Source: Rhodospirillales bacterium (GTDB lineage: Bacteria > Pseudomonadota > Alphaproteobacteria > MPNO01 > UBA2964). From it: a stretch of 64,000 bases of DNA. Of the stretch, positions 4,485-64,000 are shown piece by piece (position 1 is the stretch's first letter; each line of letters begins with the position of its first letter). The DNA is taken from contig JAYOEY010000002.1 of assembly GCA_038116945.1 (NCBI GenBank), forward strand, positions 20,958 through 84,957, written 5' to 3'. The position numbers were made by a program, and so were the translations under genes. Under the pieces are notes generated by a model, which was given only the letters and a program-made list of their open reading frames with translations, had not been told where the DNA came from and ran no database searches.

Positions 4485-4499
4485 CGGCGGCGGGCGGAC

Positions 4500-9341: not shown

Positions 9342-9348
9342 CCCGGCG

Positions 9349-10794: not shown

Positions 10795-10863
10795 CCGGAC
10801 AGAAACTCGGCACTCATGACAGCGGGGCTTTCCCGTTCGACCCAGACCGGCCTGCGCGACAGT

Positions 10864-12767: not shown

Positions 12768-12832
12768 TTGACGTTCATGGCGCGAACGCTTTAGTGTTCG
12801 TGCCGTGAACAAGATTGTTCAGAACGTGAACG
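12768..12832. promoter_or_regulatory. operator cluster 1: three tandem GTTC-N7-GAAC palindromes, overlapped by a TTGACG -35-like hexamer
   Basis: CGTTCATGGCGCGAACG (12772-12788), TGTTCGTGCCGTGAACA (12795-12811), TGTTCAGAACGTGAACG (12816-12832). Centre-to-centre spacings are 23 and 21 bp. TTGACG at 12768-12773. An AT-rich tract (ATAAAATAAGGAAAATAAAGAATATTC) lies immediately upstream. Confidence 0.6.
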
Positions 12833-13509: not shown

Positions 13510-13512
13510 ACG

Positions 13513-44370: not shown

Positions 44371-44606
44371 TAAAGCCCCATTTCCGTTGGGCGTTACCGA
44401 ATCAAACAAGTCCCCGGCGGTCGTTCCGGGCGCCGACGGGGAATGAACTTCCGCCTGCCGACGGGGCTTGTCCGCCCGATTCCAGTATGAAATCCTGCCC
44501 TTTAGACAAAACGTTATGTAGTCTGCGCCCCCGACTCGATCAACCCTTAACTTGTCGACGCCTCGCCGATTGACCGTCGGGCGCCGGCCGGACCGCCTGC
44601 TGAACC

Positions 44607-51626: not shown

Positions 51627-52628
51627 ATGTCCCAGAAACACGTTCTGATTCCCGGCGGCGCCGGTTATGTCGGCACCGCGCTTGCGCGCGAACTGCTCGA
51701 CGCGAACTACCGCGTCACCGTTCTTGATTCGCTGCTTTACGGGCACGGGTTTGCGGTGCAGCAGTTTCTCAATCATCCCGCTTTCCGCTTCGTCCGGGGC
51801 GACATCAGAAACGCCGACCAGGTGGCGCAAGCGCTCGACGGCGTCGACCATGTGGTCCTCCTGGCCGCGCTCGTCGGCGATCCCGTCTGCAAGAAATATC
51901 CGGACCTCGCGCGGGCGACGAATCTCGACGCCAGCACGAGGCTGTTCGACATGGCGATGGGGCGCGGCATCGACCGTTTCGTCTTCGCGTCGACCTGCAG
52001 CAATTACGGGCTGCGCGAAACCGACGATCTGGCGACCGAGGAGGCGGAGCTCAACCCCGTATCGCTCTACGCGGAGACCAAGGTCGCGATGGAGCGGCAT
52101 ATCCTCAACAATGCCAACCGTGCGGATTTCTCCGCGACTGTGCTGCGCTTCGCAACCGCCTACGGGTTCTCCCAGCGCATGCGGTTCGACCTGACCGTTT
52201 CGGAATTCATCCGCGAACTCGCCATGGGTAAGGATCTGCTGGTGTACGACGAGAATACCTGGCGCCCATACTGCCATGTCGTCGATATTTCGCGAGCCAT
52301 CCGAACGGTGCTGGAGGCGGACGATTCCGACGTGCGGGCCGAAGTCTTCAACGTCGGAAGCCCCGACGAGAACTACACGAAAAAAATGATCGTCGAGATC
52401 GCGCTCGAATGCGGCGTGCCCGGTACGGTGCGCTACAACGAAGGCGGGGTCGATCCTCGCAATTACAGGGTTTCCGTCGATAAGTTCCGCGACCGTTTCG
52501 GCTTTGCCAACGCCCGCAACGTGCACGAAGAGGCGCCCCGGCTTATCGCTGCGGTGCAGGCGGGGCTATTCGACGACGTCGACCAGCGGCGCAACCATTA
52601 CGGCAACTATTCGATTGACGCGGAATAG
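51627..52628 (+). CDS. NAD-dependent epimerase/dehydratase (LegB/PseB-paralog-like SDR)
   Basis: VLIPGGAGYVGTALA and YAETK (YxxxK). Confidence 0.7.
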   Translation: MSQKHVLIPGGAGYVGTALARELLDANYRVTVLDSLLYGHGFAVQQFLNHPAFRFVRGDIRNADQVAQALDGVDHVVLLAALVGDPVCKKYPDLARATNLDASTRLFDMAMGRGIDRFVFASTCSNYGLRETDDLATEEAELNPVSLYAETKVAMERHILNNANRADFSATVLRFATAYGFSQRMRFDLTVSEFIRELAMGKDLLVYDENTWRPYCHVVDISRAIRTVLEADDSDVRAEVFNVGSPDENYTKKMIVEIALECGVPGTVRYNEGGVDPRNYRVSVDKFRDRFGFANARNVHEEAPRLIAAVQAGLFDDVDQRRNHYGNYSIDAE

Positions 52629-52657
52629 GTTCCGCCGGCAACACGCAGAGTTACAGG

Positions 52658-53710
52658 ATGGCATCGGCCCTTGAAGACAGCCTGCTCTCGTCGGGTGCGA
52701 CGATTCGCGACGCGATCGAAACCATAGACAGAAGCCTTCACAAGATCGCCCTGGTGATCGACGGAGACGGGCGTTTGACGGGGACGATCACCGACGGCGA
52801 TATCCGTCGCGCCCTGCTTGCGGGCAGGACGACGGAACATCCTGCGGAATCCATCATGTTCCGATCGCCGCTCTCTGCATCCGTCGATGGCGCCCTGGAT
52901 GAGGTGGAACGGATCGCGCAAAGGCGTCAGATACGCAAGGTGCCGGTTCTCGACGCCGACGGCCGGGTTGTCGCGGTGCATACAATCGACGGAGTCGGTA
53001 CGGGGCCCTTCGCCGAAAACGAAGTCGTGCTGATGGCGGGCGGGCTCGGCACCCGGCTGCAGCCGCTGACCAAGGACTCCCCCAAGCCGCTTCTCAATGT
53101 CGGCGAAAAGCCGATGCTGGAAACGATCGTCGACCAGCTCGTCAGCCAGGGTTTCCGGACGTTCCATTTTTCCGTCCGGTACAAGGCCGAGATGGTCGAA
53201 GCGCATTTCGGAAACGGAGACAGGTGGGACGCCGAGTTTCATTATCTTCACGAGGACGCGCCGCTGGGCACGGCGGGCGCCCTGTCCCTGCTGCCGAAAC
53301 GGCCGACGCTTCCATTCATCGTCATGAATGCAGACGTCCTGACCAAGGTCGATCTGATGCATCTGCTCGATTTCCACGCGGAGACCCGGGCGGTAGCAAC
53401 CATGTGCGTTCGCGCCCACGACGTTCAGATTCCCTTCGGCGTCGTTGCGACGGACGGGTCCCGGATCCTGTCCGTCGAGGAAAAGCCGGTTAAAAAATAC
53501 TTCGTGAATGCCGGTATCTACGCGCTCGCCCCGGAAGTCCTCGATCGCGTTCCCGCCGACGAGGCGCTGGACATGCCCGACCTGTTCAACGGCCTTGTCG
53601 CGGAGAACTGCAGGGTCGCGGCGTTTCCGGTTCGCGAATACTGGATCGATGTCGGACGGCACGAGGATTTTCGGCGCGCCAACGACGATTACGCGGGCCA
53701 GTTCTCGTGA
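52658..53710 (+). CDS. tandem CBS domain + sugar-1-phosphate nucleotidyltransferase (PtmE-like)
   Basis: N-terminal CBS pair, then VVLMAGGLGTRLQPLTKDSPKPLL. Confidence 0.75.
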   Translation: MASALEDSLLSSGATIRDAIETIDRSLHKIALVIDGDGRLTGTITDGDIRRALLAGRTTEHPAESIMFRSPLSASVDGALDEVERIAQRRQIRKVPVLDADGRVVAVHTIDGVGTGPFAENEVVLMAGGLGTRLQPLTKDSPKPLLNVGEKPMLETIVDQLVSQGFRTFHFSVRYKAEMVEAHFGNGDRWDAEFHYLHEDAPLGTAGALSLLPKRPTLPFIVMNADVLTKVDLMHLLDFHAETRAVATMCVRAHDVQIPFGVVATDGSRILSVEEKPVKKYFVNAGIYALAPEVLDRVPADEALDMPDLFNGLVAENCRVAAFPVREYWIDVGRHEDFRRANDDYAGQFS

Positions 53711-54396
53711 TAGACGGCCGGACCGTACTGGGGCTTGTCATCGCGCGCGGCGGGTCCAAGGGCGTGCCGCGTAAGAACGTCCTCGATGTCTGCGGCAAAC
53801 CGCTGATCGCCTGGACGATCGAAGCGGCGGCGGGTTCCCGCTATGTCGACCGGATCGTTCTCTCGTCCGAGGATGAGGAAATCATCGAGGTCGCCCGCGC
53901 CAATGGCTGCGAAGCGCCCTTTGTACGGGATGCCGCACTGGCCACCGATGAAGCGACCGGGACCGCTGTCGTTCTCGACGCCATCGAACGGGTTTCCGGT
54001 TACGATCTTGTCGTGCTGCTTCAGGCTACCTCTCCGCTTCGTCTCGCCGAGGACATCGATGGCGCGATCGAACGGTGCGTTTCGTCGGGCCGACCGGCAT
54101 GCGTTTCGGTCGCCCCGCTCGGCAAGCCGCTGGAATGGCTGCTGGATGTGGATGCTGACGGCATGCTGACGCCGGTTGCCGGGCGCGACCTGCCGGAGCG
54201 CCGGCAGGAAGCGACCGCCGTCTATGCGCCGAACGGCGCCGTTTTCGTGGCCGACTGCGCCTGGCTGAGGAAGTCGGGGTCGCTCTACGGGGATGAAACG
54301 ATAGCCTATGTCATGCCCGCCGACCGTTCCGTCGATATCGATTCGCCCACCGATCTGGCGATCGCGCGGGCGCTGCTTGCCGAACGCCGGATCTGA
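53707..54396 (+). CDS. acylneuraminate cytidylyltransferase family, CMP-nonulosonic acid synthetase (PseF/LegF/NeuA-like; GTG start)
   Basis: LGLVIARGGSKGVPRKNV, LQATSPL. Confidence 0.8.
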   Translation: MIDGRTVLGLVIARGGSKGVPRKNVLDVCGKPLIAWTIEAAAGSRYVDRIVLSSEDEEIIEVARANGCEAPFVRDAALATDEATGTAVVLDAIERVSGYDLVVLLQATSPLRLAEDIDGAIERCVSSGRPACVSVAPLGKPLEWLLDVDADGMLTPVAGRDLPERRQEATAVYAPNGAVFVADCAWLRKSGSLYGDETIAYVMPADRSVDIDSPTDLAIARALLAERRI

Positions 54397-54416
54397 TACG
54401 GCCGGACCTGATCGAC

Positions 54417-55199
54417 ATGGCCAATATCCGTCTCATCCCGCGTCTGGATGTCAAGGCTCCCAACCTGATCAAGGGAGTCCATCTCGAGGGGCTGCGGGTA
54501 GTTGGCTCGCCGGGGGAATTTGCGCGGCGATACTATGAAGAGGGCGCGGACGAACTGCTCTACATGGATATCGTGGCGAGCCTGTACGGGCGCAACAATC
54601 TGGAGCAGATCGTGTCGGATACCGCGCGCGACGTGTTCATCCCGATGTGCGTCGGCGGCGGCATCCGGTCGGTCGACGACGCCACCCGCCTGCTGCGCGC
54701 CGGCGCCGACAAGGTGGCGATCAATACCGCCGCAATCGCCAACCCTGGTTTAATAGAAACGCTGTCCCGGCGCTTCGGGTCGCAGTGCATCGTTCTGTCC
54801 ATCGAAGCCAAACAAACGCGGGCGGGCGGCTGGGAGGCCTTTACGGACAACGGGCGCGAAAAGACCGGTCGCGACGCCATCGCCTGGGCGATCGAAGCCG
54901 CCGAACGAGGCGTCGGCGAAATACTCGTCACCTCGGTCGACCGGGAAGGGACGCGAAAGGGCTTCGATATCGCGCTTGCCGACGCCATCGCCGGCGCGGT
55001 GCCGGTGCCGGTAATCGCAAGCGGCGGCATGGGTTCGGTCGAACATCTTGTCGAAGTCGTCCGCAACGGTCATGTCGACGCCGTCGCGATGGCGGATGTC
55101 CTTCACTACGAGCGGCTGAGCCTGAAGGAAATCAGACGCGCGGCGCTGGATGCAGGGCTGGCCGTCAGGCCGGAAGCGCCCGCCGCGCTGGCCTCATGA
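54417..55199 (+). CDS. HisF-like cyclase subunit, copy 2
   Basis: IRLIPRLDVKAPNLIKGVHLEG and CVGGGIRSVDD. Confidence 0.8.
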   Translation: MANIRLIPRLDVKAPNLIKGVHLEGLRVVGSPGEFARRYYEEGADELLYMDIVASLYGRNNLEQIVSDTARDVFIPMCVGGGIRSVDDATRLLRAGADKVAINTAAIANPGLIETLSRRFGSQCIVLSIEAKQTRAGGWEAFTDNGREKTGRDAIAWAIEAAERGVGEILVTSVDREGTRKGFDIALADAIAGAVPVPVIASGGMGSVEHLVEVVRNGHVDAVAMADVLHYERLSLKEIRRAALDAGLAVRPEAPAALAS

Positions 55200-55831
55200 C
55201 GAAAATTGCCGTCATCGATTACGGCGCAGGGAACCTGTTCAGCATTGCGCGCGCGCTCGAACATTGCGGCGCGACGCCGGTATTTACCGCCGATCCCGAT
55301 TCCCTTCGAAAGGCCGACAGGGCCATCCTTCCCGGCGTCGGCGCGTTCGGCGACGGCATGGCGGCCCTGCGACAGGCAAGCCTGTCAGCCGCGATTGCAG
55401 AGCTTGCCGCGGCGGGGAACCCGGTTCTCGGAATCTGCCTCGGCATGCAGATGCTGTTCGATGCCAGCGAGGAGTTCGGCGACCATACCGGTCTGGCGCT
55501 GATCCCGGGCCGGGTATTGCCGCTGCCGCGGACCCGGGCCGACGGCGCGCCGCAGAAGGTGCCGCATATCGGCTGGAACGATCTGTGCGAACCGGCTCCC
55601 GGTCGTTGGGCGGGCACTCCGCTGGCAGCCATCGCGCCGGGAACATCGGCCTATTTCGTTCACTCCTTCGCCGCCGTGCCAGCAGACGGCCGCGACGCGA
55701 TCGCGACATGCGTCTATGGCGGCCACGCGATTACCGCCGCCGTGCAAAGGGACAATGTCTGCGGCTGCCAGTTCCATCCGGAGCGCAGCGGTCCGGCGGG
55801 CCTGTCGATCATCCGGCAGTTTCTGGCCTGA
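55196..55831 (+). CDS. HisH-like glutamine amidotransferase, copy 2
   Basis: IAVIDYGAGNLFSI, VLGICLGMQML, CQFHPERS. The ATG at 55196 overlaps the upstream TGA. The track's 54647 start is a spurious extension. Confidence 0.8.
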   Translation: MTKIAVIDYGAGNLFSIARALEHCGATPVFTADPDSLRKADRAILPGVGAFGDGMAALRQASLSAAIAELAAAGNPVLGICLGMQMLFDASEEFGDHTGLALIPGRVLPLPRTRADGAPQKVPHIGWNDLCEPAPGRWAGTPLAAIAPGTSAYFVHSFAAVPADGRDAIATCVYGGHAITAAVQRDNVCGCQFHPERSGPAGLSIIRQFLA

Positions 55832-55850
55832 CAGCGAATTGCGCCGAATT

Positions 55851-55865
55851 CCCGCCGCAGGCGGG
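55851..55865 (+). other. hairpin CCCGCC-GCA-GGCGGG after the HisH-like copy 2 stop (possible factor-independent terminator lacking a U-run)
   Basis: Perfect 6-bp stem and 3-nt loop, 20 nt after the stop codon. The next gene starts about 60 nt further downstream. Confidence 0.2.
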
Positions 55866-55927
55866 AGGACGGATCCCTGAAACCCTTACCCGATGCCAGA
55901 ACGCATCAAATCTTGGAAAGTGGCTGA

Positions 55928-56638
55928 ATGACCGAAATACTGGATTACAAACATACCGAAGTTTACTACCCCGACCATCGCGACGAGCCGAAACAGCTGT
56001 TTGTCGAGATCGCCGACCGCATAGAACTGAGCGCCGGCGGCTCCCCTTTCGACCTGCTCGACGTCGGCGGCGCATCGGGCGATTTCGTATACTATATCGG
56101 GAAACGTTTTCCCGATTCCGCCTGCACCTGCATCGAGTATGACAGCGAACTGGTCGCGCTCGGCCAGGAACGCGTGCCGGCCTGCCGCTACATTCAAGGC
56201 GATGCCAACGACATGAAGGAGTTTTCCGACCGGTCGTTCGATTTCGTCACCATGACGGGCGTGCACAGCATTTTCGACGATTTTCGGCCGTCGCTGGCGG
56301 AGTCGATCCGCGTTACCCGGGATGGCGGGCGCTGCATCATTACCGGGCTTTTCAACGATTACCCCATCGATGCGCTGATCTACTGGCACTATGCCGGCGA
56401 CGAGAACGGCCTGCGGCGCGGATACAATTTCATCTCGACGCAGACCGTAAGCACGTTCCTCGAATCGCAGGATCGCGTCGCCGCGTTCCGCTTCGAGCCC
56501 TTCAGGATCCCGTTCGATCTCGAAAAACCCGACGACCCCATACGGTCCTGGACCGAACCGGGCGCCGACGGTGAGCGCGTCATCATAAACGGGATCATGC
56601 CGCTCAATATTCAGTCGCTCGTCCTCGAGATATCCTGA
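55928..56638 (+). CDS. class I SAM-dependent methyltransferase
   Basis: LLDVGGASGDF (motif I), IQGDANDM. Confidence 0.7.
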   Translation: MTEILDYKHTEVYYPDHRDEPKQLFVEIADRIELSAGGSPFDLLDVGGASGDFVYYIGKRFPDSACTCIEYDSELVALGQERVPACRYIQGDANDMKEFSDRSFDFVTMTGVHSIFDDFRPSLAESIRVTRDGGRCIITGLFNDYPIDALIYWHYAGDENGLRRGYNFISTQTVSTFLESQDRVAAFRFEPFRIPFDLEKPDDPIRSWTEPGADGERVIINGIMPLNIQSLVLEIS

Positions 56639-56672
56639 CTCCGTCCCGCAACGGACCCCGGCTCTGCCCGGC

Positions 56673-58706
56673 ATGGATCAAACAGTCATGAAATCCCCGC
56701 CGCACGCCCGCTCGCCGACGCCTGTCCGGCATTCGAGCATCGGCGTCGACCATCTGGATTTCTGGGCGGCGCTGCATCTGATCCGCAGGCCGCCCACCGG
56801 GCGAATCGTTTGCCTGACCCGGAGCACGGGGTTCTGCGCCCGGTTCGTCGTATCGCTGTTGCGCCGCAGGGGCATCCGCGTCGATACGGTCACTTCGCCG
56901 CTCGTCGAAAGACCGGCACCCGGCTATTACGCGGAGTTCATGGAGCGCAAGGTCGATTGCAGCATCAACCATGTGGAACCCGCCATCGCCCGTACGCTCG
57001 CGGACTGGCACTTTGCGAACGATCTCGAAAGGCGGCGAACGGTTCGATATCTGCTGCTTGCCCACTCGCGCGTCGTCATGCGTCAGACGGAGTTGGTCGA
57101 GGCGGCGATCCGTCTCGACAGGGCCGACGGACCCGTGGCCGTCCTGATGCAGAAAGACGGTCTGAGCGAAGGGCTGGCGGGATTTGCGCGGGCCTCCGGG
57201 CTGGAGGCCGAGTTTTACAGGGCGCCGTTCCGGCTTCGCATGACGCGACGGCCGGATCTGGGAACCCATGAGACCGATCTCTGGTCCGGCGAAGCTGCCC
57301 TGCGGCACGTACTGAGATGGTTTGCGTTGGTCGGCTTGAACGCGGGAGCCTTGCTCCGGCGTCAGACCGGCGGCGCGCCCCCCGAATTCGATATCATTGC
57401 CCTGACGGCCCGCCCGTCGCCGACCCCCGAGATCGACGACCTCTACTGGCTCGACGATTTGCGTCGGACCGGCGATGTCCGTATCGGACTGTTTTATACG
57501 ACGCCGGTATCCACCGACGCCCGGACCCGTTACGGCGGGCGTCTCGACGGGCCCTACGAAATAGCGGCGCTGACCCGCGGCCGCCAGGCCGGTTGCGATC
57601 TCGGCAGGCAGTTTCTTGCCTGCCGGCTGCGCGGGATTGTTGCGGCCGGCAAGCGCATCGTCGGCCCCGTTCTGCGCCGCCGGCTTCCCGTCGCATTCGG
57701 CGCCGCGCTGCTCACGCTCTGGGAGCGGGCGTCGCTCTATGAGGCGTTGATGCTTCGGACAGGAGCGAGAGTGGGATGGGCGATGAACGAAGGCCATGAG
57801 CTCAACACCCAGGCGATCGCGATCGCGGCGGCGCGAACCGGCGGGATCGTGGCGGGCTCGACCTGGTCGATCTGGTTCGGCCCGCAGCTCGATTCGGCGC
57901 TCAACAGGAACGATGTCATGTTCGTATGGGGCGAGCGACACGTCCGGCTGTTCGAGGCGTCCGCAGCTCTGATCGACAGCCAGGTCATCGCCGGATATCC
58001 GTCTCGGGGTTTCAGGGACGACGACAGCGCCGCGCGCGACATCGTCGCCCGCTGGCGGCATCAGGACCCCGACGCGCTTGTGTTGTGCCTCTACGACAAT
58101 GCGGCGGCGCAGGACTTTCCCGTCGTGGCGTCCGAAATCGAGGGCCTCTATCGTGCGATCGTCAACGCCATGGACCGCAGGTCCGAACTGAGGCTCATTC
58201 TCAAGACCAAGCGGCCGGACCTGGCATCGAATTCGCTGCCGTTTCGAAGCGATCTGGAACGCCTGTTCGCCGAGGACCGCATTGCCGTCGTTGACCGTTA
58301 CGGGGATCTTGCGCCGGGCCTCGCCGCCGACGTCGTGATCGGGGTTTCCGCATCGTCGCTCGGGCTCATGTGCGCCCATCGCGGCAAGCCTTTCATCGCC
58401 TTCGATCCGAGCGGCATCCTCATACGCTATCCGGCGCGCGGTCTCGCCGACCTGCGCATCGTCGAAGGACCCGAACAGCTCGAGACCGCCCTCATCGAAC
58501 TGACCGCCGACGGCGAAAAGCGGTGCCCGGCGTCGGACGATATCGACGGTTTTGCCGATACCGCCGGCGCCCGGCGCGCGGCGCAATATCTCAACGCTGT
58601 GGTTGCCGCCGCCCGCGAAGGGGCCTCCCGGGACGAAATGATTGACAGCGGCCGTCGGGAGGCAGAGTCATGGCGTTCCTGTCACACACTCGAAAAAACC
58701 GCCTGA
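56673..58706 (+). CDS. large hypothetical protein (677 aa; possible glycan transferase, unassigned)
   Basis: No diagnostic motif. It sits between the methyltransferase and amidotransferase copy 2 within a tightly packed operon. Confidence 0.35.
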   Translation: MDQTVMKSPPHARSPTPVRHSSIGVDHLDFWAALHLIRRPPTGRIVCLTRSTGFCARFVVSLLRRRGIRVDTVTSPLVERPAPGYYAEFMERKVDCSINHVEPAIARTLADWHFANDLERRRTVRYLLLAHSRVVMRQTELVEAAIRLDRADGPVAVLMQKDGLSEGLAGFARASGLEAEFYRAPFRLRMTRRPDLGTHETDLWSGEAALRHVLRWFALVGLNAGALLRRQTGGAPPEFDIIALTARPSPTPEIDDLYWLDDLRRTGDVRIGLFYTTPVSTDARTRYGGRLDGPYEIAALTRGRQAGCDLGRQFLACRLRGIVAAGKRIVGPVLRRRLPVAFGAALLTLWERASLYEALMLRTGARVGWAMNEGHELNTQAIAIAAARTGGIVAGSTWSIWFGPQLDSALNRNDVMFVWGERHVRLFEASAALIDSQVIAGYPSRGFRDDDSAARDIVARWRHQDPDALVLCLYDNAAAQDFPVVASEIEGLYRAIVNAMDRRSELRLILKTKRPDLASNSLPFRSDLERLFAEDRIAVVDRYGDLAPGLAADVVIGVSASSLGLMCAHRGKPFIAFDPSGILIRYPARGLADLRIVEGPEQLETALIELTADGEKRCPASDDIDGFADTAGARRAAQYLNAVVAAAREGASRDEMIDSGRREAESWRSCHTLEKTA

Positions 58707-60043
58707 TTATGGATTCGAAATCAGAAACGTCCCCGCCATCCGGCGCCTTCGATATCGACGCCTTCGCGCCCGAAGCCAACGAACTTCCGGCGCGTTACGG
58801 ACTTCCCCGGGATGTCGCTTTCTGTAACCGGTGCGTTATTTCCAATCAGCGTCCGTCATCCAGTATCGAATTCAAGACTCGGGCTGACAGTCCCAAGACG
58901 ACGATCCGGATGGACGACGACGGAGTCTGCGACGCCTGTCATTTCGCCGAGCACAAGCAGAAAGAGATCGACTGGAACGCGCGGGAAGACGAACTGCGCG
59001 AACTGTGCGACCGGTTCCGGCGCACCGACGGCGCTTACGACTGCGTTGTTCCCGGCTCGGGTGGAAAGGACAGCGTCTATGCGGCGCATGTCCTGAAATA
59101 CAAGTACGGCATGCATCCGCTGACGGTTACCTGGGCGCCGCATATCTATACCGACTGGGGATGGAAGAATTTCCAGGCGTGGCTCCATTCGGGTTTCGAC
59201 AATCAGCTGTTTACGCCCAACGGCCGGGTGCACCGGCTCCTGACCCGGCTGGCGCTCGACCGCCTGCTGCATCCGTTCCAGTCCTTCGTGCTGGGACAGA
59301 AGAACGTGGCTCCCAGGGTGGCGGCGCGCTACGGCATTCCCCTGATCTTTTACGGCGAAAACGAAGCCGAGTACGGCAATCCCATTGCGGACAATACAAG
59401 CGCGAGACGCGACTGGTCCTACTTCAGCGCGCAGGACGATTCCGATATTTTCATCAGCGGCGCGTCGGTGGAGGAGCTGATCGGCGACTACGGCGTCGAC
59501 CGCGCGGACCTGCAGCCGTACATGCCGGCGGATCCGTCGCAGCTCGAACGCCACAATATCGAGGTCCATTATCTCGGCTACTACCTCAAATGGCATCCGC
59601 AGAGCTGCTATTACTACGCGGTGGAACATTGCGGGTTCGAGGCCGCGCCGGAACGCACCTCGGGCACCTACAGCAAGTATAACTCGATCGACGACAAGGT
59701 CGACGACCTGCATTACTACACGACCTATATAAAGTTCGGCATCGGCCGAGCGACCTACGATGCGGCGCAGGAAATCCGTTCCGGCGATATCACGCGCGAA
59801 GAGGGCATCGCGCTGGTCAAACGGTTCGACGGCGAATATCCCGAGCGGTTCTTCGACGAGCTGATGACCTATCTCAGCATTCCGGAGGAAGAATTCCCCG
59901 TTGCGCACGGGCGCTTCGATCAGCCCCTCATGGACAGGGCCTGTTTCGATGCGCTGTGCGACAGTTTCCGGTCTCCTCATATATGGAAATACGAAGGCGG
60001 TGAATGGCGTCTGCGCCGCACCGTCTGGGAAGACGTTCTTTAA
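58670..60043 (+). CDS. PP-loop N-acetyl sugar amidotransferase, copy 2 (alternative start ATG 58709)
   Basis: CNRCVISNQ...CDACHF Cys cluster and CVVPGSGGKDSVY PP-loop. Same architecture as 20619..21830. Confidence 0.8.
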   Translation: MAFLSHTRKNRLIMDSKSETSPPSGAFDIDAFAPEANELPARYGLPRDVAFCNRCVISNQRPSSSIEFKTRADSPKTTIRMDDDGVCDACHFAEHKQKEIDWNAREDELRELCDRFRRTDGAYDCVVPGSGGKDSVYAAHVLKYKYGMHPLTVTWAPHIYTDWGWKNFQAWLHSGFDNQLFTPNGRVHRLLTRLALDRLLHPFQSFVLGQKNVAPRVAARYGIPLIFYGENEAEYGNPIADNTSARRDWSYFSAQDDSDIFISGASVEELIGDYGVDRADLQPYMPADPSQLERHNIEVHYLGYYLKWHPQSCYYYAVEHCGFEAAPERTSGTYSKYNSIDDKVDDLHYYTTYIKFGIGRATYDAAQEIRSGDITREEGIALVKRFDGEYPERFFDELMTYLSIPEEEFPVAHGRFDQPLMDRACFDALCDSFRSPHIWKYEGGEWRLRRTVWEDVL

Positions 60044-60066
60044 CCGAAGAGAGGGAGGAAGTGGCG

Positions 60067-60237
60067 ATGGCCGATATCCTGAAGGGAAATTTTGAAACCA
60101 GAAAAAAGGTCGAGCCGGCGGCGAAAAGCGCCGAGGACGAGCTGGAAGAGAAATTCGAACGAGAAGCCATGAAGCGGCTTGGCGGTTCGATCGCGTTCGT
60201 TTCCAAGAAAAAGGTCAAGTGGGACCTGGACGACTGA
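60067..60237 (+). CDS. 56-aa highly charged small protein (hypothetical)
   Basis: GAGGGAGG ribosome-binding site 8 nt upstream of ATG 60067. Translates as MADILKGNFETRKKVEPAAKSAEDELEEKFEREAMKRLGGSIAFVSKKKVKWDLDD. Confidence 0.35.
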   Translation: MADILKGNFETRKKVEPAAKSAEDELEEKFEREAMKRLGGSIAFVSKKKVKWDLDD

Positions 60238-60264
60238 CGAGCACGGATTCGGCGGACAGGATCG

Positions 60265-61296
60265 ATGGCGGATAACAAAGCCGGATCGCTCGGCGAGGCG
60301 CTGGTCGCCCGCATGGAGCAGATGACATGGGACCGAATTGGTGAACTCAGCCAGCAGAACATCCGGCGCAACGCGTCGGTGCTCGACAGGGGCCTGTCCC
60401 TGAAAGCGCTGCGCGACGCAACGGTCGGCCGGGGCGACAGCGCGATTGTCATCGCCGCAGGTCCCAGCATCCACCGCCACGATCCGATTGCCGCGATCAA
60501 GCAGAGCGGTTATCGCGGCGCCATCGTCGCGACAGAGAGCGCGATGGTCTATTGCCTGCGCAACGGCGTGGTGCCCGACCTTGTCGTGACGGTCGATCCG
60601 CACGACCGGATCAAGAGATGGTTCGGCGATCCCAACCTGAGTCAGGATGAACTTGATGCCGACGATTACTATCGCCGTCAGGACATGGACGAATCGGTTC
60701 GCCGGGAGCGCGAATTCAATGACGAAGTCCTCCGGCTGCTGGAGCGTCACGGACGGGATATCCGCATCGCCGTTGCCACGACCGCGGGCGAAAACGTGGT
60801 GAGACGCTGTATCGACACCGGCATGCAGATCTACTGGTGGAACCCGATGCTGGACGACCCCGATGCCGAAGACAGCGTCAGCCGCGCCATCTGGCGCGAA
60901 AACCGGCTGCCCCTGGTGAACGCCGGCGGCAATGTCGGCACCTCGTGCTGGATGATGGCGCACGCGGTGCTCGGCAAGGCGAAAGTTGCGCTCACCGGCA
61001 TGGATTTCTCCTATTACGGCGGCACCGATTTCCTGCGCACCCAGTACTACTACGAAATCCGCGACCTGGTCGGCGAGGACCGGCTGGGCGAGGTGTTCAT
61101 GGCGATCCGCAATCCCTATCTGGACCGGGAATTTTTCACAGACCCGGCCTATAAATGGTATTGCGAGTGTTTTCTCGAACTCGCCGCCGATGCCGAATGC
61201 GAAACGGTGAACTGTACCGAGGGCGGCATCCTGTTCGGCGATCATGTCGCGTTCCGGCCGCTTGCCGACTTTCTCGCGGAAACCGTTGACGGATAG
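60265..61296 (+). CDS. MptE-like/DUF115 protein (motility-accessory-factor-like putative nonulosonic acid transferase)
   Basis: AIVIAAGPSIHRHDP...DLVVTVDPHD arrangement reminiscent of Maf/PseE-type DUF115 proteins. Assigned from memory of the family pattern. Confidence 0.5.
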   Translation: MADNKAGSLGEALVARMEQMTWDRIGELSQQNIRRNASVLDRGLSLKALRDATVGRGDSAIVIAAGPSIHRHDPIAAIKQSGYRGAIVATESAMVYCLRNGVVPDLVVTVDPHDRIKRWFGDPNLSQDELDADDYYRRQDMDESVRREREFNDEVLRLLERHGRDIRIAVATTAGENVVRRCIDTGMQIYWWNPMLDDPDAEDSVSRAIWRENRLPLVNAGGNVGTSCWMMAHAVLGKAKVALTGMDFSYYGGTDFLRTQYYYEIRDLVGEDRLGEVFMAIRNPYLDREFFTDPAYKWYCECFLELAADAECETVNCTEGGILFGDHVAFRPLADFLAETVDG

Positions 61297-61321
61297 ATAA
61301 AGGACACAGGGGAATACCGAT

Positions 61322-62866
61322 ATGGCCAAGGTCCTGTTCATAAATCCGACAGTGCGTCAGGAAGACGTGCCCCGCCATGTGCCTTACGGCATCGCTTTGC
61401 TGGCGGCCATCGCCATGGAGAAAGGCCACCAGGTCCAGGTCTATGACGAAAACGCCTGGCGTCTTGGCCCGGAGACCCGGAAGCAGGTGCTCGAAGCCGA
61501 CGACTGGGACGTCATCGCGATGGGCGGCATCACCACCGCCTACCGGTCGATCAAAAGCGCAGTCGCCATGGCGCGGGAGGTCTGTCCCGACGCGGTGATC
61601 GTTCTGGGCGGCGGCGTCCTGACATCGATTCCGCACGACATCATGGGATGGCTCGACGCGGTCGATGTCGGCTGCGTCGGAGAGGGGTTCGTGACCTTTC
61701 CCGAGATTCTCGAGATGGTCGATTCCGGCAAGCGCGACTGGCACATGATCAAGGGCACGGTTTATCGCCGGGAAGACGGCAGGACGATGCTGTCGGGAGC
61801 GCGCGAACTGTTGCAGGATCTCGATTCGCTGCCCTATCCGGCGTGGGATCTGTTCCCGCTGGAAGATGTCTATTTCAAGAACAGCGCGGCGCTGTTTTCC
61901 GAAGAAGGCATGCTGGCGAGCCGGCGGCTCGACATCAACACGTCATACGGCTGTTCGCTCGTCTGCAAGTTCTGCTACCACCTCGGCATCGCCGGCGACA
62001 TGCGTTACGAGGAAGACGATTCCGGCAGGGTCAACGTGGCGTTTGACCAGACCGGCAGCTACACACGCGACATCCGCTACCACAGCCCGGAATATGTCGT
62101 GAAAATGGTCAAGCATGCCTACGACAAGTACAACATCAATTTTATCGGGTTCCTCGACGAGAACCTGATGACCATGGATGTGTTCTCCGGCCGGACCTGG
62201 ATGAAGGAAATCTGCCGCCTGTGGCACGAGTACGGCCTGGCGCCCAAAGCGCGGCCGGACGGGACCTGGGAGGGCATCCACTGGGGCGGCACCAGCCATG
62301 CCACGCTGTGCAATCAGGAAATCCTGAAGATCATGCGCGAAGCGGGCTGTTCGCACCTGGTCTACGGGTATGAATCCTTTGCGCCGCACGTCCTGAAAAC
62401 GATCGGCAAGGGATCGACCGTCAAGACCAACCTGCGCAGCTTCTTCTGGACGCTGGAAGCGGGCATCCGGCCCATCCCCAACCAGATCATTGGGTTTCCC
62501 AACGAGGATTTCGACTCGCTTCGCATGTCGATGGACGCGTGGCACAAGCTCGGGATCGTCGTCAAACCGCACTTCGCGACGCCCTACCCAGGATCGGAAT
62601 GGTTCACGGTGCACCGCAAGCGTATCGAAGAGCAGTACGGCGGCGACCTGGAAAAATTCATCATCGATGTCGGGGACGCGTCTCAGATTTCGGCGGTGAT
62701 TTCGCATAATTTCAACGCGGTCGAGCTGATCGGCCTGCGCGAGTTCATGGTCAATTTCCAGTACGACAAGATCGACGCTTATGAGAAAGAATGGCGCCGA
62801 CGCCACAATGTTCCCGAAGGCGCGCCATCGTCCCTCATTCCGCTCGCCAAGAGCGCCGCGGAATAA
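61322..62866 (+). CDS. cobalamin-dependent radical SAM enzyme number 4
   Basis: MAKVLFINPTVRQ...GIALLAAIAMEKGHQVQVYDEN (B12-domain-like) and SYGCSLVCKFCYH (C-x3-C-x2-C). AGGGGAA ribosome-binding site upstream. Confidence 0.8.
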   Translation: MAKVLFINPTVRQEDVPRHVPYGIALLAAIAMEKGHQVQVYDENAWRLGPETRKQVLEADDWDVIAMGGITTAYRSIKSAVAMAREVCPDAVIVLGGGVLTSIPHDIMGWLDAVDVGCVGEGFVTFPEILEMVDSGKRDWHMIKGTVYRREDGRTMLSGARELLQDLDSLPYPAWDLFPLEDVYFKNSAALFSEEGMLASRRLDINTSYGCSLVCKFCYHLGIAGDMRYEEDDSGRVNVAFDQTGSYTRDIRYHSPEYVVKMVKHAYDKYNINFIGFLDENLMTMDVFSGRTWMKEICRLWHEYGLAPKARPDGTWEGIHWGGTSHATLCNQEILKIMREAGCSHLVYGYESFAPHVLKTIGKGSTVKTNLRSFFWTLEAGIRPIPNQIIGFPNEDFDSLRMSMDAWHKLGIVVKPHFATPYPGSEWFTVHRKRIEEQYGGDLEKFIIDVGDASQISAVISHNFNAVELIGLREFMVNFQYDKIDAYEKEWRRRHNVPEGAPSSLIPLAKSAAE

Positions 62867-62923
62867 CCCGCACGCCGTCCACTCACCGGAAACCGGACCG
62901 GCCGTCCCCCGGCGGCAAAGCAC

Positions 62924-64000
62924 ATGACAGACAGAATTTTCCTTTCCGCGCCCTCGATGGGCGGTGACGAAAAGCGCCTGATCGGCGAGGCGATCGATGC
63001 CAGCGAAATCGCGCTCGGCCGTCATCTCGCCGATCTCGAAAAACGGCTCGCCGAACAGGCGGGGGTGCGCGCCGCCGCGGCGGTCGCATCCGGCACGGCA
63101 GCGCTCCATCTGGCGTACGACGTGCTCGGGATCGGTCCGGGCGATCTCGTGTTCTGTTCGTCCCTGACCTTCGTTGCGACGGTTGCGCCCGCCTGCCAGC
63201 TGGGCGCCACCCCGGTCTTTATCGACTGCGAACCGGAAAGCTGGAACATGTCGCCGCGCGCGCTCGAACGCGCCTTCGCGGACGCTGCGAAGAACAATCG
63301 GATGCCCAAGGCGGTCGTGGTAGCGAGCATTTACGGACAGAGCGCGGATTTCGACCCGCTTTCGAAAATCTGCGACCGGTTTGGCGTGCCTGTCGTCGAG
63401 GACGCCGCCGAAGTTCTCGGCGCAACCTACAGGGATCGCCCGTGCGGCGGTCTCGGGGCGATCGGAATCTATTCCTTCAACGGCAACAAGATCATCTCCA
63501 CCGGCGGGGGCGGCGCGGTGCTGTGCGACGACGAAGAGACGATCCGCCGCATCCGGTTCCTGTCCGGCCAGGCGCGCGATCCGGGCTGGCATTACGAACA
63601 TACGAGGCTCGGCTACAACTACCGCATGAGCAATATCGCGGCGGCGATGGGCATGGCGCAGATGGACCGGCTCGAGGACCGCATTGCGCGCCGTCAGGAA
63701 ATCTTTGCGCGGTACAGGGCGGCGCTCGGCGACATCGACGGAATCGGCTTCATGCCGGTTGCCGGTTACGGCAGACATACCTGCTGGCTCAGCGTGATTT
63801 CGATAGAGCCCCGTCCCGGCCGGCCGGCCATTCCGGAAATCTGCGCCGCGCTCGACGGACAGGCGATCGAGGCGCGCCCGGTCTGGAAGCCGTTGCACCG
63901 CCAGCCGGTATTCGACGGCTCCGCCTATTTCTCGCATGGCGAGAACGAGAGCGTGTCGGAGCAGGTGTTCGCCAACGGGCTGTGCCTGCCTGCCGGACCC
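62924..64000 (+). CDS. DegT/DnrJ/EryC1-family aminotransferase, copy 3 (LegC/PglE-like), 3'-truncated by window end
   Basis: Hand translation from ATG 62924 gives MTDRIFLSAPSMGGDEKRLIGEAIDAS...ASGTAALHLAYDVLGIGPGD...IYSFNGNKIISTGGGG. No stop before nt 64000. Absent from the track because it is open-ended. Confidence 0.7.
   Translation, partial: MTDRIFLSAPSMGGDEKRLIGEAIDASEIALGRHLADLEKRLAEQAGVRAAAAVASGTAALHLAYDVLGIGPGDLVFCSSLTFVATVAPACQLGATPVFIDCEPESWNMSPRALERAFADAAKNNRMPKAVVVASIYGQSADFDPLSKICDRFGVPVVEDAAEVLGATYRDRPCGGLGAIGIYSFNGNKIISTGGGGAVLCDDEETIRRIRFLSGQARDPGWHYEHTRLGYNYRMSNIAAAMGMAQMDRLEDRIARRQEIFARYRAALGDIDGIGFMPVAGYGRHTCWLSVISIEPRPGRPAIPEICAALDGQAIEARPVWKPLHRQPVFDGSAYFSHGENESVSEQVFANGLCLPAGP

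What the first reader, a model, noticed from the sequence alone, without database searches (positions are those of the whole stretch)
51627..64000. Second, paralogous nonulosonic-acid/amidino module with a Maf (MptE-like) transferase, suggesting protein O-glycosylation
A CBS-domain nucleotidyltransferase (PtmE-like, 52658), an SDR (51627), a NeuA-type CMP synthetase (53707), a second HisF/HisH pair (54417-55831), a second PP-loop amidotransferase (58670), a SAM methyltransferase (55928), radical SAM number 4 and a third DegT (62924, running off the window) resemble the Campylobacter legionaminic-acid/ptm arrangement. The MptE-like/DUF115 protein (60265-61296) belongs to the family of motility accessory factors that transfer Pse/Leg onto flagellin. 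Its presence argues that at least part of this island decorates a protein (flagellin or pilin) rather than building a polysaccharide, and that two differently amidinated, possibly N-methylated, nonulosonates are made.
Basis: partly seen in the sequence, partly recalled or inferred. Interest (0 to 1): 0.55.

Follow-up and report, generated by a model that had tools for sequence, protein, structure and literature searches.

The report
Legionaminic-acid operon with uncharacterised tailoring trio
This stretch is one operon for making a bacterial sialic-acid-like sugar (legionaminic acid); its "Maf" gene is a short relative locked into a widespread, unstudied three-gene cassette that may build the unexplained ten-carbon sialic-acid-like sugars, not a flagellin glycosyltransferase.

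Summary
Window 51.6-64 kb is one plus-strand operon for a legionaminic-acid (Leg) type CMP-sugar, with an acetamidino module (WbuX, HisF, HisH) and a SAM methyltransferase. An 83%-identical syntenic contig continues with NeuB and NeuC right where the window ends.

The inference "Maf, therefore protein O-glycosylation" is not supported. The 343-aa PF01973 protein passes Pfam's cut-off but matches only part of the profile. It fails the curated Maf/PseD model and is half the length of a Maf. In 80 related loci from more than ten phyla it is always flanked by an unnoticed 56-aa protein gene (60067-60237) and a cobalamin radical SAM enzyme. Five of those loci also carry a separate long Maf. No flagellin gene appeared in the window ORFs scanned or among the recurrent neighbour families.

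The trio's commonest neighbour is a CMP-sugar synthetase, and the other recurrent neighbours are sugar-tailoring enzymes. M. gryphiswaldense MSR-1 carries the trio and is reported to make CMP-activated ten-carbon ulosonic acids with no gene assigned.

I propose that the trio tailors CMP-Leg, probably by C-methylation. This is an inference, not a demonstration. A GT-B protein (56673-58706) is an alternative transferase candidate.

The parts
49530..51578 (+). Cobalamin-type radical SAM enzyme, first gene of the plus-strand operon and a probable extra Leg-tailoring C-methyltransferase
   Evidence: Pfam Radical_SAM and B12-binding. NCBIfam KedN5-family C-methyltransferase, 175.7 bits, below the cut-off of 700. 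The start at 49530 follows the gene call on Logan contig L001. An orthologue scoring 1075 bits lies between LegC and NeuC in trio locus L078.
51627..52628 (+). SDR dehydratase/epimerase, LegB-like by context
   Evidence: Pfam Epimerase 156.8 bits. LegB model TIGR04180 gives only 72.6 bits against 475. Homologues scoring 283-345 bits lie directly upstream of LegC-NeuC-NeuB in L023, L028, L050 and L052.
52658..53710 (+). CBS-domain sugar-1-phosphate nucleotidyltransferase (PtmE-like)
   Evidence: Pfam CBS plus NTP_transferase. Present in 42 of 80 related loci.
53707..54396 (+). CMP-nonulosonate synthetase (LegF/PseF-like)
   Evidence: CTP_transf_3 70.4 bits. PseF model 145 bits against 205.7.
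54417..55199 (+). HisF/WbuZ-type cyclase subunit of the acetamidino module
   Evidence: His_biosynth 224 bits. WbuZ 277 bits against 299.7.
55196..55831 (+). HisH-type glutamine amidotransferase subunit
   Evidence: TIGR01855 201.7 bits against 105.4.
55928..56638 (+). Class I SAM methyltransferase, a possible N- or O-methylase (PtmH-like role by analogy only)
   Evidence: Methyltransf_11 53 bits. It is not a conserved part of related loci.
56673..58706 (+). 677-aa protein with a GT-B-like fold, a candidate glycosyltransferase; the public gene call starts at 56688
   Evidence: No Pfam or NCBIfam hit in the held libraries. Precomputed weak hit to PF27878 PFTS_polysacc. AF2 model mean pLDDT 69, pTM 0.66. 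Foldseek top hits are UDP-GlcNAc 2-epimerases, OGT and GT1 enzymes, E about 4e-7.
58670..60043 (+). WbuX/PseA/PtmG-type N-acetyl sugar amidotransferase
   Evidence: TIGR03573 392.6 bits against 203.2.
60067..60237 (+). Conserved 56-aa protein, first gene of the trio (motifs LKGNF ... FEREA.KRLGGSIAFV.KKK..W)
   Evidence: ORF with a GGGAGG ribosome-binding site. 333 candidate homologues, none with a Pfam domain. 193 cluster representatives at E<=1e-3. Found directly upstream of the DUF115 gene in 79 of 80 loci. Invariant G, N, E, F, E, LGGS, V and W. Third codon positions vary most.
60265..61296 (+). Short (343 aa) PF01973/DUF115 protein, second gene of the trio
   Evidence: Pfam 55.6 bits against 34.6, partial match. 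Family members are 46-91% identical across phyla. AF2 model pLDDT 93.8. Foldseek gives Maf 5mu5 at E 4e-8, TM 0.51, 16% identity, then MptE 8sd5 at E 1e-5.
61322..62866 (+). Cobalamin-type radical SAM enzyme (514 aa), third gene of the trio
   Evidence: B12-binding 47.2 bits and Radical_SAM 52 bits. No curated equivalog; the best are BchE at 85 bits and HpnJ at 84.5. Found downstream of DUF115 in 79 of 80 loci.
62924..64000 (+). LegC-family aminotransferase, truncated by the window end
   Evidence: TIGR04181 330 bits against 420. In L012 the orthologue is followed by NeuB and NeuC.

Best explanation
Window 49.5-64 kb is one operon that makes and tailors a CMP-activated legionaminic-acid-type sugar for a surface glycan.

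Core pathway (supported by family assignments and context):
- A PtmE-like CBS-nucleotidyltransferase supplies the nucleotide-GlcNAc precursor.
- A LegB-like SDR and a LegC-family aminotransferase make the diamino sugar.
- NeuC-, NeuB- and PglD-type enzymes are expected just past the window end.
- A CMP synthetase activates the product.
- WbuX with HisH and HisF converts an N-acetyl group to an acetamidino group.
- A SAM methyltransferase may methylate the product.

The trio (inferred): the short DUF115 protein is not a flagellin Maf. Together with a 56-aa partner protein and a cobalamin radical SAM enzyme it forms a conserved accessory cassette that acts at the CMP-sugar stage. I propose that the radical SAM enzyme C-methylates the Leg skeleton. 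That would give the ten-carbon "higher-carbon ulosonic acid" reported as a CMP-sugar in M. gryphiswaldense. The DUF115 protein, which has a CMP-sugar or nucleotide-binding fold, and its small partner would bind or present the substrate, or pass on the finished sugar.

The GT-B protein at 56673 is a candidate for the actual transfer onto the glycan.
For: Leg pathway:
- The SDR is placed by context.
- The window's last 4 kb are colinear with L012 at 83% nucleotide identity. L012 then continues with NeuB_NnaB (459.6 bits against 399.65) and NeuC (399.6 against 235.9).

The trio is a unit:
- 79 of 80 loci have the small ORF and 79 of 80 have the radical SAM gene. Both misses are contig ends. The loci span Alpha-, Beta- and Gammaproteobacteria, Nitrospinota, Myxococcota, Acidobacteriota, Methylomirabilota, Planctomycetota, Chloroflexota and Latescibacterota.
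- One natural in-frame fusion of the small protein and DUF115 exists (P0369).

The trio looks like a tailoring module rather than a Maf:
- Its commonest direct neighbour is a CMP-sugar synthetase, in 24 of 71 loci upstream and 12 of 67 downstream.
- Other recurrent neighbours are tailoring enzymes. No recurrent neighbour family is a flagellin.
- Five loci also carry a long canonical Maf, and that Maf does not detect the short DUF115 by phmmer.
- The protein is conserved at 46-63% identity across phyla, which is unusual for a transferase acting on variable acceptors.

Chemistry:
- M. gryphiswaldense DSM 6361 shows CMP-linked ulosonic acids with a C10 backbone marker at m/z 679.1983, 693.2139 and 707.2296. 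No gene was assigned (bioRxiv 10.64898/2026.04.20.719630; PMC8157484).
- These masses fit a CH2 ladder on an acetamidino, O-acetylated Leg.
- M. gryphiswaldense MSR-1 carries the trio.
- From established enzymology, cobalamin radical SAM enzymes are the class known to methylate unactivated carbon. The weak PDB hits include the iterative methylase CysS.
Against: - No experiment links the trio to the C10 sugar. The link rests on co-occurrence in one studied species.
- The radical SAM enzyme's best curated matches (BchE, HpnJ, AprD4) are not methylases, so it could catalyse another radical reaction.
- The window has a second B12 radical SAM enzyme that is more clearly methylase-like (49530, KedN5-like). 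MSR-1 also has an additional B12-domain gene nearby. Either could be the C-methylase instead.
- A C10 sugar could also arise if a NeuB-type synthase condensed PEP with a seven-carbon sugar.
- The model gives no firm role to the DUF115 protein or the 56-aa protein.
- The closest solved fold is still a glycosyltransferase, Maf, so a transferase role remains plausible.
- NeuB and NeuC downstream of the window are inferred from a relative, not seen.
Confidence: 0.5

Rival explanations
1. The DUF115 protein is a motility accessory factor (Maf) that transfers Leg or Pse from the CMP-sugar onto serine or threonine of flagellin or pilin, so part of the island decorates a protein.
For: PF01973 passes its gathering score. 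The best structural match is the Maf of M. magneticum, 5mu5, at E 4e-8. The superfamily's conserved acidic motifs (D111 in ..VTVDPH.., D247 in GMDF) are invariant, and the first aligns next to the critical residue 324 of that Maf.
Against: - It has 343 aa, against 632-887 aa for Mafs, and no acceptor-binding domains.
- The PseD model gives 24.9 bits against 670.
- TM is 0.51 and identity 16% to 5mu5.
- Sequence profiles place it nearer MptE.
- No flagellin, pilin or flagellar gene was found among the window ORFs scanned.
- Long Mafs co-exist with it in 5 loci and are not detectably similar to it by phmmer.
- The family occurs in lineages far from known flagellin-glycosylating groups.
Confidence: 0.1
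2. The DUF115 protein is a minimal Leg transferase. The 56-aa protein is its cis-encoded adaptor, like GlfM for Maf-2, or is itself the conserved acceptor. The radical SAM enzyme modifies the sugar after transfer, or modifies the small protein. The product could be a Leg-carrying small protein used as a primer or carrier.
For: - Maf/GT42-like fold.
- There is a precedent for a small cis-encoded specificity factor for a Maf that lacks a binding domain (bioRxiv 10.1101/2023.12.03.569772).
- Strict adjacency and one natural fusion of the small protein and DUF115.
- Unusually high cross-phylum conservation fits a conserved, co-encoded acceptor.
- An invariant Ser in the LGGS motif and a near-constant Thr after KGNF.
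- No other universally conserved transferase candidate in the 80 loci.
Against: - GlfM is an 89-aa four-helix bundle linked to flagellin binding. No homology to it was shown.
- The C10 sugar is already found at the CMP-sugar level, so carbon modification precedes transfer in at least one trio host.
- The small protein has no signal peptide or lipid anchor motif.
- No complex model could be computed.
Confidence: 0.25
3. The trio is a RiPP-like system. The 56-aa protein is a precursor peptide that the B12 radical SAM enzyme C-methylates, the DUF115 enzyme glycosylates, and an ABC transporter exports.
For: - The radical SAM enzyme has moderate matches to RiPP C-methyltransferase families: rSAM_ocin_1 at 69 bits and ApyD at 64 bits.
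- A fused ABC exporter gene lies directly upstream of the small ORF in 4 of 71 loci.
- The small protein has a conserved Gly-Gly followed by a conserved C-terminal segment.
Against: - The whole 56-aa sequence is conserved, rather than a conserved leader with a variable core.
- The hydrophobic register before the GG does not fit double-glycine leaders.
- The window's ABC transporter has no C39 peptidase domain and best matches PglK, HepA and MsbA lipid-linked glycan exporters.
- The trio is always embedded among sugar-nucleotide genes.
Confidence: 0.07

Closest known systems
Campylobacter jejuni legionaminic acid / ptm genes (LegB, LegC, LegH, LegG, LegI, LegF, PtmE, PtmG, PtmH)
   Same: The enzyme families match: a CBS-nucleotidyltransferase, an SDR dehydratase, a LegC-family aminotransferase, a CMP synthetase, a WbuX/PtmG-type amidotransferase with HisH and HisF partners, and a methyltransferase. 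NeuB and NeuC follow in the syntenic relative.
   Different: Most proteins fall below the curated equivalog cut-offs: LegB 72.6 bits against 475, LegC 330 against 420. There are no flagellar genes and no long maf genes. This operon adds two cobalamin radical SAM enzymes, a GT-B protein and the 56-aa/DUF115 pair. From my own knowledge, the Campylobacter locus has none of these.
Maf flagellin nonulosonate glycosyltransferases (e.g. M. magneticum Maf, PDB 5mu5)
   Same: Same Pfam superfamily (PF01973). 5mu5 is the best structural match, at E 4e-8 over 316 columns. The conserved Gly-rich and acidic motifs are present.
   Different: About half the length, 16% identity and TM 0.51. It fails the curated PseD model. 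It is not detected by a long Maf in phmmer. It is always coupled to a B12 radical SAM enzyme and a 56-aa protein, and it co-exists with true Mafs in five loci.
Archaeal MptE (6-hydroxymethyl-7,8-dihydropterin pyrophosphokinase, PDB 8sd5)
   Same: The closest solved protein by sequence profile (E 1.2e-8). It shares the GPS, PD..V and GMDF motifs, and the fold match has TM 0.60 normalised to MptE.
   Different: MptE has about 215-240 aa and acts in pterin synthesis. Here there is no pterin context, the protein has extra helical insertions, and the genomic context is nonulosonate synthesis.
GlfM-Maf-2 tripartite flagellin glycosylation (Shewanella oneidensis)
   Same: A small cis-encoded protein is paired with a PF01973 enzyme that lacks its own acceptor-binding domain.
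   Different: GlfM has 89 aa, is a predicted four-helix bundle and binds flagellin through Maf-2. The protein here has 56 aa and other motifs, no homology to GlfM was tested, and a radical SAM enzyme is an obligatory third partner.
Cobalamin-dependent radical SAM C-methyltransferases acting on sugars or nucleotide-linked substrates (Fom3, GenK, CysS, TokK)
   Same: The domain architecture matches: a B12-binding domain plus a radical SAM core with CxxxCxxC. There is a weak PDB hit to CysS. By analogy, from my own knowledge of Fom3, this class can act on a cytidylylated substrate.
   Different: No curated family is matched above its cut-off. The best-scoring models (BchE, HpnJ) are not methylases. 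The substrate and reaction are unknown.

Membership tests
Maf (motility accessory factor) flagellin nonulosonate glycosyltransferases | PF01973 (Maf_flag10/MptE-like) domain | tested here: met
   55.6 bits against a gathering score of 34.6, but only profile positions 13-80 of 171. A long Maf in L043 gives 143 bits over positions 2-169.
Maf (motility accessory factor) flagellin nonulosonate glycosyltransferases | Multi-domain architecture of about 600-900 aa with flanking acceptor-binding regions | tested here: not met
   343 aa. The stop-to-stop frame allows at most 353 aa. All 120 listed homologues have 318-366 aa.
Maf (motility accessory factor) flagellin nonulosonate glycosyltransferases | Match to the curated flagellin-modification model (NF050051 PseD) | tested here: not met
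   24.9 bits against a cut-off of 670.
Maf (motility accessory factor) flagellin nonulosonate glycosyltransferases | Critical acidic residues equivalent to positions 324 and 415 of M. magneticum Maf | tested here: inconclusive
   D111 and D247 are invariant in 46 sequences. The HMM alignment places query residues 59-112 on 5mu5 residues 272-323 at E 0.1. The second residue was matched by motif only (for the literature).
Maf (motility accessory factor) flagellin nonulosonate glycosyltransferases | Genomic linkage to flagellin or flagellar genes | tested here: not met
   None among the roughly 55 window ORFs scanned. None of the 20 recurrent neighbour families scanned in the 80 loci is a flagellin. 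A few ORFs under 200 aa were not scanned.
Maf (motility accessory factor) flagellin nonulosonate glycosyltransferases | Transfers a nonulosonate to Ser/Thr of flagellin | not testable with these tools
   Needs genetics and mass spectrometry.
Legionaminic acid biosynthesis pathway | PtmE-type CBS plus nucleotidyltransferase, and a CMP-sugar synthetase | tested here: met
   CBS 49 bits plus NTP_transferase 139 bits, and CTP_transf_3 70 bits.
Legionaminic acid biosynthesis pathway | LegB dehydratase and LegC aminotransferase equivalogs | tested here: inconclusive
   LegB model 72.6 bits against 475. LegC model is the best hit at 330 bits against 420, on a truncated protein. Gene context in L023, L028, L050 and L052 supports the roles.
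Legionaminic acid biosynthesis pathway | NeuC-type hydrolysing 2-epimerase, NeuB-type synthase and PglD-type acetyltransferase | tested here: inconclusive
   Not inside the window. In colinear L012 (83% nucleotide identity) NeuB scores 459.6 bits against 399.65 and NeuC 399.6 against 235.9, starting 64 nt after the point that matches the window end. A PglD-like ORF lies at the contig end.
WbuX/WbuY/WbuZ (PseA/PtmG) acetamidino-forming module | WbuX amidotransferase plus HisH- and HisF-like subunits | tested here: met
   WbuX 392.6 bits against 203.2. HisH 201.7 against 105.4. WbuZ 277 against 299.7, slightly below its cut-off.
Cobalamin-dependent (class B) radical SAM enzymes | N-terminal B12-binding domain plus a radical SAM core with CxxxCxxC | tested here: met
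   PF02310 47.2 bits against 32.1. PF04055 52 bits against 29.5. The CSLVCKFC motif is visible in the translation.
Cobalamin-dependent (class B) radical SAM enzymes | Methyl transfer to carbon | not testable with these tools
   No curated equivalog is matched. The best hits are BchE at 85 bits and HpnJ at 84.5, far below their cut-offs.
GlfM-type adaptor of Maf-2 | About 89-aa four-helix bundle with a conserved Asp in the last helix, binding Maf and flagellin | not tested
   No GlfM sequence was at hand. The protein here has 56 aa and no family in NCBIfam or the precomputed Pfam.

The most novel reading that the evidence does not exclude
The 56-aa protein, the short DUF115 protein and the cobalamin radical SAM enzyme together form the machinery that extends the carbon skeleton of CMP-legionaminic acid. 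The products would be ten-carbon (or longer) "higher-carbon ulosonic acids". This sugar class has been seen by mass spectrometry in M. gryphiswaldense since 2020 with no genes assigned. On this reading the window organism and members of more than ten phyla make such sugars.
Probability: 0.35. Interest if true: 0.8.

Novelty: new variant of a known kind. Interest (0 to 1): 0.62.

Why it matters
Nonulosonic acids shape bacterial surfaces, phage receptors and immune recognition, and the enzymes that diversify them are wanted for glyco-engineering.

Two orphans may meet here. One is an unassigned sugar chemistry: CMP-activated C10 ulosonic acids in Magnetospirillum. The other is an unannotated three-gene cassette found next to Leg genes in at least 80 species, including that organism.

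If the link holds, it would be the first radical, cobalamin-dependent carbon-carbon modification of a sialic-acid-like sugar. It would also give a third functional type within PF01973, beside Maf transferases and MptE kinases, and a new 56-aa protein family with a defined partner.

There is a practical lesson too. A PF01973 hit alone should not be read as evidence of flagellin glycosylation.

Tried and rejected
**Extending the contig**
- Exact-product look-ups for the radical SAM and DUF115 proteins found nothing.
- Look-ups for HisF and the small protein found only short Logan contigs that end inside the window.
- The 360-kb NCBI contig that carries the identical small protein was not returned. 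Synteny with L012 was used instead.

**Modelling a small-protein/DUF115 complex**
- MAFFT misaligned the block alignments of artificial fusions.

**The 677-aa protein**
- The homologue search returned only 3 proteins.
- There were no PDB sequence hits.
- BLAST found no similarity to the other large unknown proteins: 575 aa in L007, 577 aa in L005, and 727 aa at window 44607.

**Ideas considered and dropped**
- A LysW-like C-terminal carrier role for the small protein. Its C-terminus varies in length and sequence after the invariant Trp.
- A ThiS/MoaD-like role. The protein is too short, and the Gly-Gly is internal.
- A double-glycine leader peptide. The hydrophobic register does not fit, and the transporter has no C39 domain.

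**Literature**
Searches combining nonulosonic, legionaminic or pseudaminic acid with radical SAM, cobalamin or DUF115 found no paper that links them.

Full report
**1. What is there**

The window has about 62% G+C. Most of it is one large glycan island. The island lies after rsmB, rpe and a heparinase-II/III-like gene.

From about 49.5 kb to the window end, all genes run on the plus strand, with overlaps or gaps under 100 nt.
- an SDR (51627);
- a CBS-nucleotidyltransferase (52658);
- a CMP-sugar synthetase (53707);
- HisF (54417) and HisH (55196);
- a SAM methyltransferase (55928);
- a WbuX amidotransferase (58670; 392.6 bits against a cut-off of 203.2);
- a PF01973/MptE-like protein (60265; 55.6 bits against 34.6);
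- a B12-binding radical SAM enzyme (61322);
- a DegT whose best model is the LegC family (62924; 330 bits against 420, truncated by the window end).

One is a 677-aa protein (56673-58706). The other is a 56-aa ORF (60067-60237) with a GGGAGG ribosome-binding site.

The upstream module is a genuine pseudaminic-acid pathway. PseB, PseC, PseG and PseI all score above their curated cut-offs. The island therefore encodes two different nonulosonate routes. The two acetamidino modules are only 28-39% identical, so they are family relatives and not recent duplicates.

**2. Is it a legionaminic-type module, and what lies past the window?**

Public look-ups by exact protein gave only short contigs from the same set of metagenome runs.

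A scan of species-representative genomes with an alignment of the PF01973 protein returned 80 loci. The closest is L012, a MAG contig labelled Rickettsiales. It is colinear with window 51.6-55.0 kb at 75% nucleotide identity and with 59,975-63,999 at 83%. In L012 the LegC-family gene overlaps the start of a NeuB gene (459.6 bits against 399.65). A NeuC gene follows (399.6 against 235.9), then a 647-aa unknown, then a PglD-like ORF.

The point that matches the window's last base lies 64 nt before that NeuB start.

In other related loci, close homologues of the window's SDR sit directly upstream of LegC-NeuC-NeuB-PglD-CBS-nucleotidyltransferase. This supports a LegB-like role despite a weak score on the curated LegB model.

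**3. The "Maf" is something else**

The PF01973 protein has 343 aa. Its frame allows at most 353 aa.
- The Pfam match covers only positions 13-80 of the 171-position profile.
- The curated flagellin-modification model PseD gives 24.9 bits against a cut-off of 670.
- A homologue search found a tight family of 318-366 aa proteins, 57-91% identical among the 120 best hits. It includes Magnetospirillum sp. ME-1, M. gryphiswaldense and Paramagnetospirillum caucaseum.
- An AlphaFold model built on 46 sequences is confident (pLDDT 93.8).
- Foldseek against the PDB gives the M. magneticum Maf (5mu5) first, at E 4e-8, TM 0.51 and 16% identity. Archaeal MptE kinase (8sd5) follows at E 1e-5, with TM 0.60 normalised to MptE.
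- By sequence profile the order reverses: MptE E 1.2e-8, Maf E 0.1.
- The superfamily's Gly-rich and acidic motifs are invariant, so the protein is probably an active enzyme. The motifs do not say whether it transfers a sugar or a (pyro)phosphate.

**4. A conserved three-gene cassette**

In M. gryphiswaldense and Magnetospirillum ME-1 the gene sits between a 56-57-aa ORF and a roughly 518-aa B12 radical SAM gene, inside Leg-type loci. The window has the same small ORF.

I searched six-frame ORFs of all 80 loci with the window's proteins:
- 79 of 80 loci have the small ORF just upstream of the PF01973 gene.
- 79 of 80 have the radical SAM gene downstream, in most cases within 200 nt.
- Both misses are contig ends.

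The loci come from Alpha-, Beta- and Gammaproteobacteria, Nitrospinota, Myxococcota, Acidobacteriota, Methylomirabilota, Planctomycetota, Chloroflexota and Latescibacterota. Even so, the PF01973 protein stays 46-63% identical to the window's.

The small protein is a real family:
- It has 333 candidate homologues and no Pfam domain.
- It has 193 cluster representatives in the 50% library.
- It has no NCBIfam model.
- Its invariant residues form the motifs LKGNF, E..FE, LGGSIAFV and a Trp.
- Third codon positions vary most.

One representative, P0369 (410 aa), is an in-frame fusion of the small protein to the PF01973 protein. It comes from a single short contig and is followed directly by another gene. 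This is weak Rosetta-stone evidence for a complex.

**5. What the neighbours say**

Almost all 80 loci are Leg-type.

| Neighbour | Loci (of 80) |
|---|---|
| CMP synthetase | 64 |
| NeuB | 50 |
| NeuC | 46 |
| CBS-nucleotidyltransferase | 42 |
| PglD-like | 35 |
| WbuX / HisF / HisH | 29 |

The trio's commonest immediate neighbour is a CMP-sugar synthetase: 24 of 71 loci upstream and 12 of 67 downstream.

I clustered the unassigned ORFs. The other recurrent families are GFO/IDH/MocA oxidoreductases (22 loci), SDRs, formyltransferases, methyltransferases, PIG-L deacetylases, 2-hydroxyacid dehydrogenases, an AMP-ligase, a TPR protein and several unknowns. None of the 20 families scanned is a flagellin.

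Five gammaproteobacterial loci also encode a long, canonical Maf of 765-887 aa, with PF01973 at 143 bits over the whole profile. A phmmer search with that Maf finds none of the short proteins. The two types are therefore distinct and not redundant.

The trio behaves like a sugar-tailoring add-on that does not depend on the final acceptor.

**6. The rest of the island**

I found no flagellar or pilin gene among the roughly 55 window ORFs scanned. The island carries:
- an RfaH/UpxY-like NusG paralogue at the head of the long plus-strand cluster (13510-14049);
- a GT2;
- a fused ABC exporter that best matches PglK, HepA and MsbA;
- an MBOAT and an SGNH/AlgX-like protein;
- a DUF6044/YfhO-like membrane protein.

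These fit a lipid-linked or polysaccharide-type glycan better than cytoplasmic flagellin glycosylation. They do not prove it.

The 677-aa protein inside the operon models with moderate confidence (pLDDT 69). Foldseek places it in the GT-B fold class, with UDP-GlcNAc 2-epimerases, OGT and GT1 enzymes. It is a second candidate for the actual transferase.

**7. A link to orphan chemistry**

Full-text searches found no paper that links nonulosonates with radical SAM enzymes, cobalamin or this DUF115 form.

Two papers do report an unexplained sugar in M. gryphiswaldense.
- Kleikamp et al. [quoted passage not shown]
- The 2026 SugarBase preprint (10.64898/2026.04.20.719630) detected CMP-linked species at m/z 679.1983, 693.2139 and 707.2296. 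Their DMB derivatives give a C10 backbone marker (311.10 against 297.09 for Leg). No gene was assigned, and the text mentions neither radical SAM, cobalamin nor a methyltransferase.

My arithmetic shows that the three masses are a CH2 ladder. Their formulae fit an acetamidino (or amino), O-acetylated Leg carrying extra CH2 units.

Strain MSR-1 (DSM 6361, from my own knowledge of the strain designations) carries the trio. One hit is named as coming from MSR-1 v2, and its locus shows the 55-aa ORF, the PF01973 gene and the 515-aa radical SAM gene.

From established enzymology, cobalamin radical SAM enzymes are the class known to methylate unactivated carbon, sometimes iteratively (CysS, TokK). 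Fom3 acts on a cytidylylated substrate.

The most economical reading is that the trio's radical SAM enzyme C-methylates the Leg skeleton at or near the CMP-sugar stage. This is inference. The enzyme's best curated matches are non-methylases (BchE, HpnJ). Other B12 radical SAM genes lie nearby, both in the window (49530, KedN5-like) and in MSR-1. A heptose-based NeuB route to a C10 sugar is not excluded.

**8. Roles of the PF01973 protein and the small protein**

These roles remain open. There are three options:
- They bind or present the CMP-sugar for the radical enzyme.
- They form a minimal Leg transferase with a cis-encoded adaptor. This would be analogous to GlfM with Maf-2 in Shewanella.
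- The small protein is itself the conserved acceptor or carrier.

The very high cross-phylum conservation and the natural fusion favour a fixed protein-protein or protein-small-molecule partnership over action on variable glycans. I could not compute a complex model.

**9. Verdict**

The Leg/amidino reading is supported. The step from DUF115 to flagellin or pilin glycosylation is not supported.

The operon itself is a new member of a known pathway type. The embedded cassette is an uncharacterised variant: a third kind of PF01973 protein with obligatory partners. It is widespread, and it offers a direct, testable candidate for the genes behind ten-carbon ulosonic acids.

Noticed in passing
window 13510-14049 (+): A NusG paralogue of the RfaH/UpxY type (RfaH model 125.7 bits against 144.5; UpxY 84 bits against 100) sits at the head of the long plus-strand glycan gene cluster. 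It suggests operon-specific antitermination, as in polysaccharide loci.
   Followed up: partly
window 7530-12588: A phosphonate-type module. It contains a PEP mutase (391.5 bits against 319.55) fused to a nucleotidyltransferase domain. On the minus strand it has a CysN/APS-kinase fusion (9349-10794) and a B12 radical SAM enzyme whose best match is a P-methyltransferase family (10864-12588; 162 bits against 575). The glycan may carry phosphonate and sulfate groups.
   Followed up: partly
window 10864-12588 (-), 42274-44409 (-), 49530-51578 (+), 61322-62866 (+): Four cobalamin-type radical SAM enzymes occur in one 64-kb glycan island. The one at 49530 matches the KedN5 C-methyltransferase family (175.7 bits, below the cut-off). 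Its orthologue lies between LegC and NeuC in locus L078.
   Followed up: partly
window 40513-41910 (-), 44607-46790 (+), 46845-48254 (-), 48482-49021 (-): An MBOAT, a DUF6044/YfhO-like membrane protein (weak, 21.9 bits), an SGNH/AlgX-like protein and a GNAT lie between the two nonulosonate modules. They look like a set for O-acylation of an exported glycan.
   Followed up: no
window 1929-3770 (+): A NodU/CmcH-type carbamoyltransferase at the edge of the island (Carbam_trans_N 362.7 bits) hints at carbamoylated sugars.
   Followed up: no
window 25817-28029 (+): Two long ORFs in different frames overlap by about 900 nt. One has PseG plus a GNAT domain (25817-27337). The other has a formyltransferase C-terminal domain only at its end (26443-28029). 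The second gene's true start is probably near 27.3 kb, or there is a frameshift.
   Followed up: no
L022 2021-4561, L027 567-3092, L039 1686-4346, L043 13442-15916 (-), L085 3-2297: Long canonical Maf-type proteins (765-887 aa stop-to-stop) lie in the same loci as the short DUF115 trio in five gammaproteobacterial MAGs. L043 gives a full-length PF01973 match of 143 bits.
   Followed up: partly
L092 206-1438 (protein P0369): A single 410-aa gene fuses the 56-aa protein in frame to the short DUF115 protein. It lies on one 1963-bp metagenome contig and could be a real fusion or a sequencing error.
   Followed up: partly
L075, L076, L079, L088, L090 (about 11000-12800 in locus coordinates; L088 about 3100-4800): In these loci the radical SAM gene is separated from the DUF115 gene by 1.2-1.8 kb. 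Four are Methylomirabilota/Rokubacteria or Acidobacteriota loci and one (L079) is a betaproteobacterial MAG. In L088 the insert encodes a class I SAM methyltransferase; the other inserts were not annotated.
   Followed up: partly
L005 12626-17152 (M. gryphiswaldense): Directly after the trio come a 577-aa unknown, a radical SAM/SPASM enzyme, a second DegT aminotransferase and a hexapeptide acyltransferase, then a second NeuB. This set could add another amino/acyl group to the sugar.
   Followed up: no
L093 3833-4807 and 16615-18851 (M. gryphiswaldense MSR-1-type locus): Sulfotransferase-like, sulfatase-family and APS-kinase genes flank the trio. This parallels the CysN/APS-kinase gene in the window and suggests sulfated glycans in both.
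   Followed up: no
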